A stretch of 35,990 nucleotides of DNA from Nanobdellota archaeon (GTDB lineage Archaea; Nanobdellota; Nanobdellia; Woesearchaeales; B3-WOES): positions 1 to 35,990 of the forward strand of contig JAGLZG010000078.1 of the NCBI GenBank assembly GCA_023131705.1, written 5' to 3'. Shown one piece after another: positions 8,958 to 22,571 of this stretch. Every line of letters starts with the position of its first letter. Positions within the stretch are counted from its first letter, which is position 1. A program made the translations under genes and the position numbers. Below the pieces are notes generated by a model, which saw nothing but the letters and a program-made list of their open reading frames with translations, was not told the origin of the DNA and ran no database searches.

Positions 8958-9869
8958 ATGAAGAGAGTCCTTGTTCTTGATGGAGGAGGAGCAAAGGGAG
9001 TGATCCAGTCTCAAGTCCTGAAGGATATTGAGAGGATCAAAGGCAGGAGGATCAGTGATATTTTTGATCTCATAGTTGGGACATCAGTTGGAGCTATTCT
9101 TGGAGGAATCTATGCATCAGGGAAGATGGATGCAAAATATATCCATGCTCTGCTGATGGACACTCTTCCAAAAGTGTTCAGGAAAAGACTGTTCAGGATT
9201 CCAAAATATAGCAGGAAGGCTCTTGACAATGTGTTGTCAAAGACAATTGGAAATGAATTCAGGATGAAGCAATGCAAGAGCAGATTCATTTGCACTGCTG
9301 TCAATATGGTTGATGGAAGGACTCACTATTTTAAAAGCTGGGAGGCTGTTGATGGAGAGCTCAGACTCAATGAGGCAATCACCAGATCATATGCAGCTCC
9401 TCTCTTCTTTGGATCAATAATTGACAACAAGAACAAAGCTGTCTGGCTTGATGGAGGGACAGGGAATGCCAATTGTCCTCTTCTGGAGGCTGTCATTGAG
9501 ACAGTCAGACAGAAGTGGCTGGGAGACAAGAATCAACATCAGAGTCCTGAGAAGGTTCATATCCTGAGCATTGGGACAGGTCACGTTGATTTCTCCATGT
9601 CATTCAAAAGAGCAAGGAGAGCAAGAACAATCAGGCAAGTCCTATTTTTCCTTGATCCGGCTGAGGGAGGACTGGCAAGGAACCAATCAACAGTGAGCAG
9701 AGTCCAGAAAATTAAGTCCCTCTCAACAATTATGAAAGAGCTCTCTTTCCAGAGATTGAATCCAGAAATCTCAAAAAGGCTGGACAGGATGGATGGAGTC
9801 CGATATCTTGAGACTTATCAAAATATAGGGGAATCCCTCTCAGACGGTATTGATCACTCCAAATTGTGA
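8958..9869 (+). CDS. Patatin-like phospholipase
   Basis: DGGGAKG oxyanion loop, GTSVG nucleophile elbow, SYAAP, DGG catalytic Asp; RBS CAGGAGG. Confidence 0.93.
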   Translation: MKRVLVLDGGGAKGVIQSQVLKDIERIKGRRISDIFDLIVGTSVGAILGGIYASGKMDAKYIHALLMDTLPKVFRKRLFRIPKYSRKALDNVLSKTIGNEFRMKQCKSRFICTAVNMVDGRTHYFKSWEAVDGELRLNEAITRSYAAPLFFGSIIDNKNKAVWLDGGTGNANCPLLEAVIETVRQKWLGDKNQHQSPEKVHILSIGTGHVDFSMSFKRARRARTIRQVLFFLDPAEGGLARNQSTVSRVQKIKSLSTIMKELSFQRLNPEISKRLDRMDGVRYLETYQNIGESLSDGIDHSKL

Positions 9870-20296: not shown

Positions 20297-20307
20297 AAGG
20301 AGGAAGT

Positions 20308-20766
20308 GTGAGAATATCTAAAATCAAGAATCTCAAGAATTCCATTCTGATTGAATGGGAGACAAAGGAAAGCTCTGGGACTGTCAACTTTCATATGTTG
20401 GAATCAACAGAGAGAGCAAAGCCCACATTTTATCAGGCATTGCTGAAGCTCAGACCTTTTGTAATCCTAATGTGTGAGCTGGCTGATGGGTATGCTGAGA
20501 CAATGAGAGTCTCTGGAGTGTCACTCACAGAAGTTGGAGACTCCTGCTTGATGGGAGCAAAGATCACAGCAATTAAGAAATTGACAAAGAGTGATGATGT
20601 CATGAATGTGATCACTCCATTCAAATCTGCAAAGAATCCAGAGGACAAAAAACAGAATCCAAAAAAGATCATGCCTGAGAAGTGCCTCAAAGCAATCGGC
20701 AAGCTGATCTCTGAAGCTGAAGCATATATCAAGGGAGAGAGGGAGCAGACAAAGCTGGATATCTAA
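20308..20766 (+). CDS. Phage hypothetical protein
   Basis: GTG after AAAGGAGG; ends EAEAYIKGEREQTKLDI. Confidence 0.75.
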   Translation: MRISKIKNLKNSILIEWETKESSGTVNFHMLESTERAKPTFYQALLKLRPFVILMCELADGYAETMRVSGVSLTEVGDSCLMGAKITAIKKLTKSDDVMNVITPFKSAKNPEDKKQNPKKIMPEKCLKAIGKLISEAEAYIKGEREQTKLDI

Positions 20767-20817
20767 TAACTTACAAAGGCAGCAATTGAAACAGCTGCCA
20801 TTTGTATTGTTGGAGGA
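20764..20817. repeat. attC-like hairpin 1 (may also act as a terminator)
   Basis: AAC-t-TACAAAGGCAGC ... GCTGCC(A)TTTGTA-tt-GTT with one unpaired base. Confidence 0.55.
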
Positions 20818-20869
20818 AACTCCAAGATCAGAACAATTTTTATAGACGGCTAACCGATAAGGAGGTTTT

Positions 20870-21184
20870 ATGTTAATTAAAATGGATCCGTATGAAATAG
20901 TCAAAGTTTATGAATCAGCGAAAACTGTGCCTGAATTTACAAAAGTTCTTGTGGATAAGGGGGTGCATCCTGATATAGCGAATAAGTTGTGTCACGTTAT
21001 TGATGCCGCCGCTGATAAATGGGAAGTTGATCTTTCCGCATCCTCCAACAAATCAAGCCCAAAATATCCGAAGTTTAAAGATTTTTGGAAGTTGGTTCCG
21101 AATCGTGATAAAGCACTCGGTATAATGACTATGGATGAAATTAAACAATGGTCTGAAACGGTTTTTAGCGCAGCTCGATTATAG
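20870..21184 (+). CDS. Cassette A hypothetical protein
   Basis: RBS AAGGAGG; atypical codon usage (CG- and TA-containing codons). Confidence 0.75.
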   Translation: MLIKMDPYEIVKVYESAKTVPEFTKVLVDKGVHPDIANKLCHVIDAAADKWEVDLSASSNKSSPKYPKFKDFWKLVPNRDKALGIMTMDEIKQWSETVFSAARL

Positions 21185-21217
21185 TCGGATACTTCGGGCG
21201 TTGATCGCCGTTGTCAA
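21041..21217. repeat. attC-like site 2
   Basis: TCCTCCAAC-aa-ATCAAGCCCAAAATATCCGA ... TCGGATACTTCGGGC(G)TTGAT-cgcc-GTTGTCAA. Confidence 0.75.
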
Positions 21218-21255
21218 TAATTCCAAGCTCATAACGAAAATTGAAAGGATGCCAA

Positions 21256-21576
21256 ATGTTACTTGGTGCTAAAATTTTAAACAAGGATGATGGTTGGTGG
21301 CTTGAGGTTAAATCACCACTCGGATTAAATGGTATGATTAACTTGTCTAATCTTAATGGTGATATAATTCAACAGGCTTTTTGTCAGTGGGCTAATGGAA
21401 ATTGGTCTCACGAAAAAGAGGAAGCTGAACTTTCCACATTTGATAACAACGAAAGGGATGTAATTTGCTCCGATGATCTTTGCGACTATTGTGCCAATAG
21501 ACCAAAGCTTTGTAATTTCTGTGAGACAGGAATCTTTAATAAGTTCAAAGGCAGCAAACTGACACCCATTTCGTAA
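21256..21576 (+). CDS. Cassette B hypothetical protein with Cys-rich tail
   Basis: ATG after AAAGGA; atypical codon usage; CDYC..CNFC. Confidence 0.7.
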   Translation: MLLGAKILNKDDGWWLEVKSPLGLNGMINLSNLNGDIIQQAFCQWANGNWSHEKEEAELSTFDNNERDVICSDDLCDYCANRPKLCNFCETGIFNKFKGSKLTPIS

Positions 21577-21587
21577 ACGTTGTTTTC
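21440..21587. repeat. attC-like site 3
   Basis: TTGATAAC-a-ACGAAAGGGATGTAATTTGCT ... AGCAAACTGACACCC(A)TTTCGT-aaac-GTTGTTTTC. Confidence 0.75.
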
Positions 21588-21607
21588 AATAAAAAAGGAG
21601 GTTAATA

Positions 21608-21835
21608 ATGGCAGTCAAAGGATATGAGAAGGGATGCAGATTTGTCAAGGAGCATCCTGAGAATCCATGTTATTTGAGGGATGGAGATAGTGCTCTCATG
21701 AAGGTTGACAGGGGAGCTGTTGAAATATGCTCAACTTGCAGAAGGGAAAAGAGCAAGCTTGACAAGGCAATCACTGGAGAGCTCAAGGCAACTCTCCCAT
21801 CCACAACATTCAAAGACTCACTGAGGGAGGTCTGA
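21608..21835 (+). CDS. Hypothetical protein
   Basis: RBS AAGGAGG. Confidence 0.7.
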   Translation: MAVKGYEKGCRFVKEHPENPCYLRDGDSALMKVDRGAVEICSTCRREKSKLDKAITGELKATLPSTTFKDSLREV

Positions 21836-21839
21836 GCAT

Positions 21840-22187
21840 ATGGGACAGTGCATGAAGTGCGGAGCAGTGCTGGAAGGGACTGGGACAGTCTGTCCCAATG
21901 GTTGTCCTGAGCCTCAGCCAGCCTCAGACGATAGCAAGGATGCTGAGAGATATATGCTTGAATGTCCAGTTGTCACTGATGCCTGTCAGTGCCTGAAGTG
22001 CCCTCTCTTCACAAAGGAGGATTGTCCCAGAGTTGATCCAGCTCACAAGGTCATGTGTCTTCAATATGATCATGCTTATTATAATTTTTTGAAAGCAATG
22101 CAGGAATTCATTGACGAAAATGGATATATTAAAATAGGGAGGAATGATCTTGCAGCTGGAGCACCCAGGAGGATGCTGAATGTCTAA
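21840..22187 (+). CDS. Cys-rich hypothetical protein
   Basis: CMKC..CPNGC, CQCLKC. Confidence 0.65.
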   Translation: MGQCMKCGAVLEGTGTVCPNGCPEPQPASDDSKDAERYMLECPVVTDACQCLKCPLFTKEDCPRVDPAHKVMCLQYDHAYYNFLKAMQEFIDENGYIKIGRNDLAAGAPRRMLNV

Positions 22188-22266
22188 AAAAAAGAAGGCT
22201 GTCAGGAAAAAGAAGCTCAGGAAGATGAAGAGCCTGAGCAGGAGAATCAACAGGAGGAAAAAATGA
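22180..22266 (+). CDS. Highly basic 28-aa peptide
   Basis: MSKKKKAVRKKKLRKMKSLSRRINRRKK; RBS CAGGAGG; ATGA overlap with the next gene. Confidence 0.6.
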   Translation: MSKKKKAVRKKKLRKMKSLSRRINRRKK

Positions 22267-22571
22267 GAGAGCTGAATATCAAGATAACTTGTGGAGACCA
22301 TGATCCTGAGAAGGTCAACTATGATCAGGCAGCGATCACAGGGAATGAGAGATTTTATCTCTATGAGATACCAATCATCTTGACCAGATTCCTCTGTTCC
22401 CTGCTCTTGGAGGCTGATGTGCATGGGATCAGGCATGATCAGCTGTTGAGGGATGTTGAAGAGATTCCTCATGATTGTGGCACTTGTGCTGCATCAGTTG
22501 AAGAGTGTCCTCACTCTGCTGATGGAGGAGTTGATGGTGGGACTGAATGCACTTCATGGAAACCAGCATGA
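22263..22571 (+). CDS. Hypothetical protein with Cys-rich C-terminus
   Basis: CGTC...C...C; RBS AGGAGG. Confidence 0.65.
   Translation: MRELNIKITCGDHDPEKVNYDQAAITGNERFYLYEIPIILTRFLCSLLLEADVHGIRHDQLLRDVEEIPHDCGTCAASVEECPHSADGGVDGGTECTSWKPA

What the first reader, a model, noticed from the sequence alone, without database searches (positions are those of the whole stretch)
21041..21576. The attC-like sites are protein-coding: ORFs read through the left arm and loop
Seen: cassette A protein crosses the left arm as SASSNKSSPKYP, gains ~37 aa from the loop and stops (TAG 21182-21184) immediately before the right arm. Cassette B protein crosses as STFDNNERDVIC, gains a Cys-rich segment (CDYC..CNFC) and stops at the end of the right arm (21574-21576). 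Established: classical cassette ORFs normally end at or before the left end of attC. Inference: the recombination site doubles as a linker plus variable C-terminal domain, which could allow combinatorial assembly of small proteins.
Basis: partly seen in the sequence, partly recalled or inferred. Interest (0 to 1): 0.7.

Follow-up and report, generated by a model that had tools for sequence, protein, structure and literature searches.

The report
Phage gene cassettes with translated hairpins
Two small genes in this phage lie on integron-like mobile cassettes whose folding DNA boundary sites are also translated as the tail ends of the proteins, and one such tail is shared by dozens of otherwise unrelated small proteins.

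Summary
ORF A (20870-21184) and ORF B (21256-21576) each read through the left arm and loop of an imperfect inverted repeat. ORF A stops directly before its right arm and ORF B stops inside its own.

These are more than chance hairpins:
- A 375-bp unit with a B-type hairpin is 100% identical in two unrelated metagenome contexts, and it breaks exactly at G|TT on both sides.
- Related contigs carry same-strand arrays of such units.
- Between the window and a relative, the arm codons show 0 synonymous changes. Loop codons show 8 among 11 conserved residues.
- Across 61 tail-bearing proteins, residues encoded by opposite arms co-vary in the way base pairing predicts (0 of 5000 shuffles).
- The B tail sits on about 52 unrelated "heads". 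Four heads occur with other tails or none.

Weak points:
- No recombinase was found on the contig or in the bin, and no empty site was found.
- Folding energies are unexceptional for several elements.
- The A tail has no relatives.
- The junction is not always at the Asn codon.

The best reading is integron-like cassettes (a CALIN-like pair) whose recombination hairpins serve both as DNA sites and as coding sequence. This scan noted the same idea before in other phages. I did not find the translated-site aspect in the papers searched.

The parts
20778..20799 (+). Backbone hairpin GGCAGC-10 nt-GCTGCC followed by a T-rich run, just after the stop of ORF 20308-20766. I read it as terminator-like. 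The cassettes begin directly behind it.
   Evidence: Read.
20809..20830 (+). Left junction and leader of cassette A. It starts with the core-like GTTGGAG, and the 22 nt are complementary to 21028-21049, the left outer arm of the same cassette.
   Evidence: I1: 29 nt, 76% complementary; own leader against own left outer arm gives -14.6 kcal/mol, reached by 0.5% of random 24-mers; the in-situ neighbour gives -3.8; the 9-mer occurs 5 times on the + strand of the window, so chance placement here is about 1%.
20810..21210 (+). Cassette A (401 bp), bounded by G|TT at both ends. It has its own AGGAGG ribosome-binding site at 20860-20865.
   Evidence: The boundaries are inferred by analogy with the 375-bp unit.
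20870..21184 (+). ORF A, 104 aa. The head is residues 1-57; the tail is encoded by the left arm and loop.
   Evidence: P0002 matches residues 1-57 at 65% identity, keeps the MLIKM start, and ends 4 residues after DLSA.
21043..21216 (+). Hairpin element A (174 bp): outer core CTCCAAC 21043-21049, inner left TCAAGCCC 21053-21060, loop, inner right GGGCGTTGA 21196-21204 (one extra G), outer core GTTGTCA 21210-21216.
   Evidence: Against the A-type element of L005, the left arm is 18/19 identical, the right arm 28/34 and the loop 61/120, which is background.
21211..21579 (+). Cassette B (369 bp). Its leader GTTGTCAATAATTCCAAGCTCA resembles the leaders of cassettes in L005 and L004.
   Evidence: (D8, D19).
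21256..21576 (+). ORF B, 106 aa from ATG 21256, preceded by GAAAGGA. The head is about residues 1-60; the Cys-rich tail starts at NNERDVIC.
21440..21589 (+). Hairpin element B (150 bp): left arm 21440-21470, coding loop, right arm 21552-21590 containing the stop TAA 21574-21576, and the core GTTGTTT at 21579-21585.
   Evidence: I4, I11; the minimum-energy fold pairs the arms on both strands, z = -3.6..
21580..21835 (+). The backbone resumes (TTGTTTTCAATAAAAAAGGAGG) with ORF 21608-21835. The inferred pre-insertion site is ...ATTTGTATTG|TTGTTTTCAA...
   Evidence: This is inference only; no relative with an empty site was found.

Best explanation
The window is a tailed-phage contig. Behind a terminator-like hairpin in its accessory-gene region sit two integron-like gene cassettes, A and B, with no integrase nearby (a CALIN-like pair). 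Each is one small gene plus an attC-like imperfect hairpin, and each is bounded by G|TT.

The unusual feature is that the whole hairpin lies inside the gene. The left arm and the 80-110 nt loop encode the last 43-45 residues, and the stop codon sits at or in the right arm. The site is therefore under two constraints at once: the arms must pair as nucleic acid, and the loop must encode a tolerated peptide. In type B that peptide is a conserved Cys-rich mini-domain.

Shown:
- The reading frames run through the hairpins.
- A relative's whole cassette has moved, with breaks at G|TT.
- Arrays of such units exist.
- The arms are conserved at nucleotide level while the loop diverges synonymously.
- Residues encoded by opposite arms co-vary as pairing predicts.
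- Heads and tails reassort.

Inferred:
- The hairpin is recombined as folded single-stranded DNA by a tyrosine recombinase supplied in trans. The enzyme is unknown.
- A second exchange at or near the left arm swaps tails between heads.
- The window's two cassettes entered at a GTT.
For: 1. Mobility. L003 1460-1834 equals L004 790-1164: 375 bp at 100% identity, with unrelated flanks on both sides. The unit runs from G|TTGTAAGAAATTCC through the P0005 gene and a B-type hairpin to ...AAACG|.
2. Arrays. L005 and L004 carry 3-5 same-strand small ORFs, each ending in such a hairpin. They include an A-type element (L005) and an A-type right arm (L004).
3. The hairpin as a module. L003 and L005 share only the stretch from the left core to the G of the right core (125/132). 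Their flanks are at background.
4. Circle signature. The cassette leader is complementary to the cassette's own left outer arm in winA (-14.6, p 0.005) and L005 cassette 3 (-20.7, 0 of 400 random). It is weaker in L005 cassettes 1 and 2 (p about 0.06). In 3 of 3 comparisons the in-situ neighbour is at random level.
5. Dual constraint. Between the window and L003, the arms show 15 identical codons and 0 synonymous changes. The loop shows 3 identical codons and 8 synonymous changes among 11 conserved residues (Fisher p = 1e-4).
6. Covariation read from 61 tail-bearing proteins. For RD[X]IC against KL[Y]P, 41/61 are fully Watson-Crick compatible (V-T 25, E-S 14, A-A 2), against a shuffle mean of 22.7 (sd 3.4) and 0 of 5000 shuffles. 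For NN[Z]RD against the last residue, 39/54 are compatible (E-S 25, A-A 10, K-L 3, P-G 1), against 20.5 (sd 2.8) and 0 of 5000. In a register control the predicted partner is the best for both variable right-arm columns. One DNA-level compensatory pair, TGT:ACA to TGC:GCA, separates the B elements from L005 E5.
7. Loop residues C, Y, C, F and G are invariant or nearly so across 34-54 aligned tails.
8. CALINs in virulent phages are in print, one of them directly downstream of a terminator (PMC9892861, section 3.4 read).
Against: - No integron integrase was found. TIGR02249 scores at most 118 bits in the bin against a cut-off of 265, and is over the cut-off in 0 of 101 genomes (G000 and 100 genomes of its order). 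The only tyrosine recombinase of the bin is a 295-aa Xer-like gene on another contig, and the phage contig has none (Pfam scans 9, 28).
- The core sites fit the textbook RYYYAAC/GTTRRRY only at AAC/GTT plus 1-3 further positions.
- The elements are 150-174 bp with central parts of about 105-135 nt. That is above the 20-100 nt range quoted for the variable part of attC sites (PMC4889954 passage).
- Folding is unexceptional for several elements: window A has z about 0, and the minimum-energy folds of L005 E2 and E5 do not pair the arms. The arms are not among the 40 best pairs of a window-wide scan.
- Cassette B shows no leader-to-arm complementarity (-5.1, random level).
- There is no empty-site relative and no skipping contig in the source run.
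- Composition is only mildly foreign: GC3 is 0.33-0.34 against 0.42 (sd 0.07).
- The covariation is inferred from amino acids, taking the best codon choice for Ser, Leu and Arg, and it is not corrected for relatedness.
- IntegronFinder's attC model could not be run here.
Confidence: 0.6

Rival explanations
1. The hairpins act in the messenger RNA, not as DNA recombination sites. A long stem around the last ~45 codons of each gene would tune stability, processing or coupling to the next gene. Heads and tails would be shuffled by ordinary homologous recombination in the short conserved linker.
For: Covariation supports a stem but cannot tell RNA from DNA. The right arm ends 15-40 nt before the next ribosome-binding site. 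G:T wobble on the sense strand occurs in E-L (4) and V-A (2) pairs. attC sites are themselves known to affect expression of downstream cassettes (PMC11511950, passages). The break points of head-sharing pairs scatter over about 8 codons, as homologous exchange would give.
Against: An RNA role does not explain a 375-bp unit that is 100% identical in two contexts and breaks exactly at G|TT. It also does not explain complementarity between a cassette's leader and its own left outer arm that is absent for the in-situ neighbour. By my hand tally, sense-strand A:C mismatches (about 7), which are bad in RNA, are about as frequent as G:T wobbles (about 8). An RNA role could coexist with the DNA role.
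Confidence: 0.15
2. The hairpin alone is a miniature palindromic mobile element, like a MITE or a Rickettsia palindromic element. It would insert in frame into the 3' ends of genes and be translated as a passenger peptide.
For: The same 132-nt hairpin (95% identical) sits on unrelated genes with sharp ends. It has terminal inverted repeats. A head exists without the tail (P0002). In-frame translated palindromic elements are known: about 150 bp, with 44 insertions in Rickettsia conorii genes (PMC10969869, passages).
Against: I saw no target-site duplication at the module ends when reading the flanks. The two A-type elements share arms but have unrelated interiors (61/120), unlike a MITE family. 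The whole gene plus hairpin moves as one unit. The elements always sit at gene 3' ends, in same-strand arrays, with the stop in the right arm (9 of 9).
Confidence: 0.12
3. This is just a protein family. A Cys-rich C-terminal domain is shared by many small phage proteins through ordinary domain shuffling, and the inverted repeat is incidental.
For: The conserved residues C, Y, C, F and G lie in the loop and differ in synonymous codons. AlphaFold2 gives a separately folded tail (pLDDT about 78 for residues 71-90) behind a low-confidence linker.
Against: This reading cannot explain several results:
- There are zero synonymous changes in 15 arm codons while the loop is near saturation.
- Residue pairs co-vary exactly as base pairing predicts.
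- The A-type right arm is conserved although it is untranslated in the window and read in another frame in L005.
- The mobile unit has G|TT boundaries.
Confidence: 0.05

Closest known systems
Integron gene cassettes and attC sites, especially clusters of attC sites lacking an integrase (CALINs) in virulent phages (Qi et al. 2023, PMC9892861, abstract and section 3.4 read; Cury et al. 2016, PMC4889954, passages read)
   Same: - Each unit is one small gene without a called promoter, followed by an imperfect hairpin with AAC...GTT ends, bulged bases and a variable centre.
- The units form same-strand arrays.
- Unit boundaries lie at G|TT.
- The start of a cassette is complementary to its own left core.
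- The units occur in a phage without an integrase, directly behind a terminator-like hairpin. One published phage CALIN has the same placement.
   Different: - The whole site is translated, about 45 codons with the stop in the right arm. The known case is an overlap with the stop codon only (PMC11511950).
- In type B the centre is a conserved peptide-coding sequence rather than free to vary.
- The leader-to-left-arm complementarity extends to about 22 nt rather than a 7-nt core.
- The core consensus is only loosely met, and the sites are longer than usual.
- No IntI was found in the bin or in 100 genomes of its order.
[quoted passage not shown]
   Same: One hairpin family, type B, is attached to many unrelated genes. 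How a gene acquires such a site is unknown in both cases.
   Different: Here the shared site is read in frame and gives all the genes a common C-terminal mini-domain. The same head is also seen with different sites.
Rickettsia palindromic elements and other intragenic MITEs (PMC10969869, passages read)
   Same: A palindromic element of about 150 bp is translated in frame as part of host proteins and occurs on unrelated genes.
   Different: No target-site duplication was seen. The elements are confined to gene 3' ends in cassette arrays. Gene and hairpin move together. Within one arm type the interiors are unrelated.
Earlier notes of this scan on other phages (e1-5376961, e1-5697379, e1-6036399, e1-6221728; AI notes, unchecked)
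   Same: They describe the same idea: phage cassette hairpins that encode protein ends, with heads and tails reassorting.
   Different: They concern different phages and hairpin families. One of them partly fell on later checking. Their Xer-type recombinase lead could not be tested here, because the contig has no recombinase.

Membership tests
Integron attC site / CALIN | Outer cores 5'-RYYYAAC (left) and GTTRRRY-3' (right), complementary to each other in the circular cassette | tested here: inconclusive
   AAC and GTT are present in both elements. For A, the left core CTCCAAC fits 6/7, and the circular-form right core GTTGGAG is its exact complement. The in-situ cores GTTGTCA and GTTGTTT fit only 4-5 of 7. 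The consensus itself is recalled; quotes G|TTRRRY.
Integron attC site / CALIN | Inner imperfect inverted repeats with extrahelical bases and an unpaired spacer between the outer and inner boxes | tested here: met
   For A, TCAAGCCC pairs with GGGCGTTGA (one extra G), with spacers of 3 and 5 nt. For B there are bulges of 1 and 4-6 nt.
Integron attC site / CALIN | Variable central part of roughly 20-100 nt (PMC4889954 passage) | tested here: not met
   The central parts are about 135 nt (A) and about 106 nt (B), in elements of 174 and 150 bp. They are somewhat above the quoted range, and in type B the centre is conserved as a coding sequence.
Integron attC site / CALIN | At least two sites in the same orientation bounding single-gene cassettes, with unit boundaries at G|TT | tested here: met
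   There are two units in the window, 3-5 in L004 and L005, and a 375-bp identical unit in two contexts that breaks at G|TT.
Integron attC site / CALIN | Detection by the IntegronFinder or HattCI attC model | not testable with these tools
Complete integron | IntI integrase (TIGR02249) with attI and a Pc promoter nearby | tested here: not met
   The best TIGR02249 score is 118 bits against a cut-off of 265, on another contig. There is no PF00589 match on the phage contig. The family is over the cut-off in 0 of 101 genomes (G000 and 100 genomes of its order). The bin is 78.8% complete.
Integron attC site / CALIN | Recombination by an integron integrase as folded single-stranded DNA | not testable with these tools
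   This needs a recombination assay.
MITE / Rickettsia palindromic element | Terminal inverted repeats, target-site duplication and a conserved interior within a family | tested here: not met
   Inverted ends are present. No duplication was seen at the module ends on reading. The interiors of the two A-type elements are unrelated (61/120).
Known protein families for ORF A and ORF B | A match to Pfam, PHROGs or a solved fold | tested here: not met
   There are no Pfam or PHROG hits at E <= 0.01, no Foldseek PDB match at E <= 0.001, and Atlas scores below 0.9.

The most novel reading that the evidence does not exclude
The B-type hairpin is a 'coding attC': a self-contained recombination site that is grafted in frame onto unrelated genes. 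Acquiring the site and acquiring a common Cys-rich C-terminal tag would then be the same event. Exchange at the left arm lets a phage gene pool build small proteins combinatorially from heads and tails. The system would run on a recombinase other than the classical integron integrase.
Probability: 0.3. Interest if true: 0.85.

Novelty: new variant of a known kind. Interest (0 to 1): 0.64.

Why it matters
How integron cassettes are created, meaning how a gene acquires its recombination site, is stated to be unknown (PMC4889954). This hairpin family sits inside the reading frame of dozens of unrelated small genes. Its arms are selected as nucleic acid and its loop as peptide, and heads and tails are seen in different pairings. 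That makes three things testable:
- whether sites are acquired by in-frame fusion;
- whether recombination sites can double as protein modules;
- which enzyme moves such cassettes in phages of hosts that lack integron integrases.

It also gives a practical rule for annotation: the C-terminal 40-45 residues of such small phage proteins belong to the site, not to the gene's ancestry.

Tried and rejected
**Searches for relatives of the backbone or an empty site**
- blastn of 20300-22200 against 50,697 phage records found no match.
- ORF 20308-20766 in viral contigs found none.

**Searches for tail-family DNA**
- Viral contigs with alignment A1 gave one spurious locus, L002, which shares only DDLCDYC. 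Alignment A5 gave none.
- The A right-arm DNA pattern found 0 matches in viral contigs.
- Genome contigs with a protein pattern found none.
- Genome contigs with the DNA pattern gave 5 hits. All lie in ordinary coding DNA without a left arm, which is about what chance predicts.
- 100 genomes of the bin's order held only two matches, at E 9e-4 and 9e-3 and both with internal stops, which I do not count.

**Sequencing runs**
- Only the probable source run holds the stretch. Its contigs show no joint that skips a cassette.
- One 829-bp contig shares 36 nt and then diverges at 20760.

**Energy-only significance**
- The window-wide arm-duplex scan did not rank A or B among its 40 best pairs.
- Whole-element z-scores are significant only for window B, L005 E3 and the L005 742-890 hairpin.

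**Function of the proteins**
- Pfam and PHROGs, the Atlas, AlphaFold2 and Foldseek against the PDB gave no assignment.

**A-type proteins**
- ORF A found only itself and P0002. The L005 A-type ORF found only itself.

**Composition**
- The cassettes are only 1.2-2 sd from the backbone in GC3 and T3.

**Literature on translated attC sites or attC-encoded protein ends**
- Searches found nothing that describes it.
- Papers in subscription journals are not covered.

Full report
**Setting**

The window is a whole 35,990-bp contig (C235) of a 1.3-Mb, 258-contig bin that is 78.8% complete. All long ORFs lie on the + strand.
- They include terminase, portal, a DUF2213 protease, major capsid, baseplate J, Mu F-like and RusA genes, so this is a tailed phage.
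- There is no terminal overlap.
- No tyrosine recombinase lies on the contig. The only PF00589 match of the bin is a 295-aa Xer-like gene on contig C223.

**Observation**

- ORF A crosses the left arm as SASSNKSSPKYP, adds 37 residues and stops at TAG 21182-21184, directly before the paired right arm.
- ORF B crosses as STFDNNERDVIC, adds a Cys-rich stretch and stops at TAA 21574-21576. This stop lies inside the right arm, which pairs up to 21590, not at its end.
- The arms pair in the minimum-energy folds of both strands.
- By energy alone they are not exceptional. The duplexes of -15.4 and -17.2 kcal/mol fall near the best 1% and 0.3% of a window-wide scan, and neither is among its 40 best. 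Whole-element z is -3.6 for B but about 0 for A.
- An open frame over 43-45 codons has P about 0.03 by composition, and the other frames hold 2-7 stops.

**Relatives show that the hairpins are real elements**

- ORF B's relatives share only its C-terminal part. A profile search of 1.84 billion representatives found 65 proteins at E <= 0.001.
  - Three are long repeat proteins that I dropped as spurious (P0022, P0036, P0068).
  - Four match only the head (P0014, P0015, P0029, P0054).
  - The remaining 58, together with P0004-P0006, make 61 tail-bearing proteins of 61-124 aa with the match at their C-terminus.
- One metagenome scan gave three loci.
- L005 and L004 are arrays of small same-strand ORFs, each ending in such a hairpin.
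  - L005 holds an A-type element whose arms match window A (left 18/19, right 28/34) while the loop is at background (61/120).
  - L004 begins with an A-type right arm.
- In 9 of 9 complete elements the ORF runs through the left arm and loop, and the stop lies at the edge of, inside, or just past the paired right arm.

**Mobility**

- L003 1460-1834 and L004 790-1164 are 375 bp at 100% identity, with unrelated flanks on both sides.
- The unit starts at G|TTGTAAGAAATTCC, contains a ribosome-binding site, the P0005 gene and a B-type hairpin, and ends ...AAACG|. That is the anatomy of an integron cassette.
- In L004 the unit sits in an array. In L003 it sits among larger ORFs that I did not scan.
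- L003 and L005 share only the hairpin, from its left core to the G of its right core (125/132). Their flanks are at background. The hairpin by itself therefore also behaves as a module.
- The first ~24 nt of a cassette are complementary to the ~24 nt ending at its own left core:
  - window A: -14.6 kcal/mol, reached by 0.5% of random 24-mers;
  - L005 cassette 3: -20.7, reached by 0 of 400;
  - L005 cassettes 1 and 2: weaker, p about 0.06;
  - window B: no signal (-5.1).
- In 3 of 3 comparisons the in-situ neighbour is at random level. This is what a circular intermediate joined at G|TT predicts.
- One caveat applies to window A: its 9-mer GTTGGAGGA occurs 6 times in the window against 0.41 expected, so the chance of its placement here is nearer 1% than 0.1%.

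**Dual constraint**

- Between window B and L003, the 16 arm codons show 15 identical codons, 0 synonymous changes and 1 replacement.
- In the loop, 11 residues are conserved. Eight of them use different synonymous codons, and 15 residues differ (Fisher p = 1e-4).
- The arms are therefore held at nucleotide level, and the loop at protein level.
- Across 34-54 aligned tails, the loop residues C, Y, C, F and G are invariant or nearly so.

**Covariation**

I mapped the window's stem onto codons and asked whether residues encoded by paired codon positions 1-2 co-vary across the 61 proteins.
- For RD[X]IC against KL[Y]P, 41/61 are fully Watson-Crick compatible (V-T 25, E-S 14, A-A 2). The shuffle mean is 22.7 (sd 3.4), and 0 of 5000 shuffles reach the observed value.
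- For NN[Z]RD against the last residue, 39/54 are compatible (E-S 25, A-A 10, K-L 3, P-G 1). The shuffle mean is 20.5 (sd 2.8), with 0 of 5000 reaching it.
- The non-compatible cases include V-S (5), E-L (4, G:T wobble), V-A (2, wobble) and K-S (3 over the two sites).
- In a register control over all 64 left-right position pairs, the predicted partner is the best for both variable right-arm columns.
- One protein has Cys to Arg together with Lys to Glu, which is compatible with T:A changing to C:G.
- At DNA level, the B elements and L005 E5 differ by TGT:ACA against TGC:GCA.
- Limits of this test:
  - The pairs are inferred from amino acids, taking the best codon choice for Ser, Leu and Arg. 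The shuffles use the same rule.
  - Relatedness is not corrected for.
  - The test cannot tell DNA from RNA.
  - By my hand tally of the pair types, sense-strand G:T and A:C cases are about equally frequent (about 8 and 7), so no strand is favoured.

**Heads and tails**

- The 61 tails sit on 52 head groups without BLASTP similarity at E <= 1e-3. Some heads are only 20-40 aa, so the power of this test is limited.
- Conversely, several heads occur with other tails or with none:

| Head | Relative | Identity | What follows the head in the relative |
|---|---|---|---|
| ORF B | P0029 | 72% over 61 aa | a different tail |
| P0005 | P0014 | 97% | a different tail |
| P0005 | P0054 | 77% | a different tail |
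| P0007 | P0015 | 92% | a different tail |
| ORF A | P0002 | 65% over 57 aa | ends 4 residues after DLSA |

- The break points fall after DLSA, STS, N and NTE. That is a zone of about 8 codons at the left arm, not one fixed codon.
- By my reading of the L004 and L005 sequences, the AAC is not an in-frame Asn codon in 3 of the 9 elements (L004 e1 and e2, L005 E5). The phase is therefore specific to each hairpin type.
- The A tail and the L005 A-type protein have no relatives. For A, only the open frame argues for translation.

**What it is not shown to be**

- No integron integrase was found. TIGR02249 is over its cut-off in 0 of 101 genomes, G000 and 100 genomes of its order.
- No empty site or skipping contig was found.
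- The tail family was not found in 185,579 species genomes with the one pattern tried, N[NT][EK]RDVICS. It was also not found in IMG/VR or in 100 genomes of the bin's order.
- The proteins have no known family or fold. AlphaFold2 gives a head at pLDDT 82-87, a linker at about 60 and a tail at about 78.

**Comparison with what is known**

- CALINs in virulent phages are published, including one directly behind a terminator. Five of six tested phage attC sites were recombined by IntI1 (PMC9892861, section 3.4).
- In most resistance cassettes the attC overlaps the stop codon (PMC11511950, passage). An ORF ending in the site is therefore ordinary.
- What differs here is that the whole site is translated. 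One site family also encodes a conserved mini-domain shared by about 50 unrelated heads, under simultaneous nucleic-acid and protein constraint.
- I found no description of this in searches.
- The nearest analogue for translated palindromic DNA is the Rickettsia palindromic element (PMC10969869, passages).
- Earlier AI notes of this scan report the same idea in other phages, and one of them partly fell on later checking. They are leads, not support.

**Verdict**

The claim that the join is always at Asn is rejected. The recombination mechanism and its enzyme are inferred, not shown.

Noticed in passing
window 2813, 4734, 20809, 25616, 26502 (+) and 21041 (-): The 9-mer GTTGGAGGA occurs 6 times against 0.41 expected from shuffles. 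Four copies lie inside long structural or packaging genes. The reason is unknown; it may be a Val-Gly-Gly codon habit or possible secondary docking sites.
   Followed up: partly
window 8958-9869: A patatin-like phospholipase (PF01734, E 2.6e-17) is encoded in the phage, next to ORFs with no family match.
   Followed up: no
window 21608-22571: Three further small Cys-rich ORFs with backbone-like codon usage follow the cassettes. They have no family match and no B-type or A-type arm motif.
   Followed up: partly
P0052 (protein): This tail-bearing protein reads 10 residues past the usual end (…GRRLSPVV ERVTSTNSAM). The extra residues resemble another left-arm linker, as if a second hairpin followed directly.
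   Followed up: no
P0054 (protein): This protein has the head of P0005, then a different ~45-residue segment, then a second left-arm-like motif (SHNTER…) at its end. It looks like an insertion between two copies of the left core.
   Followed up: no
L005 1754-2275: The last ORF of the array carries tandem ~20-residue repeats (…LDLSGCDLSKVKSWPDK…) and runs off the contig.
   Followed up: no
L005 742-890: The first 22 nt of cassette 3 and the 22 nt before its left core form a near-perfect stem around the head-coding part (-22.6 kcal/mol, z = -3.7). This is far longer than a 7-nt core.
   Followed up: partly
window 20725-20760: An 829-bp contig of the probable source run matches 36 nt at the end of ORF 20308-20766 and then diverges. 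It is probably a related phage with a different downstream region.
   Followed up: no
whole contig / bin G000: The phage contig is binned with a 1.3-Mb genome whose 100 nearest genomes are 0.6-2.7 Mb. The host assignment rests on binning only.
   Followed up: no
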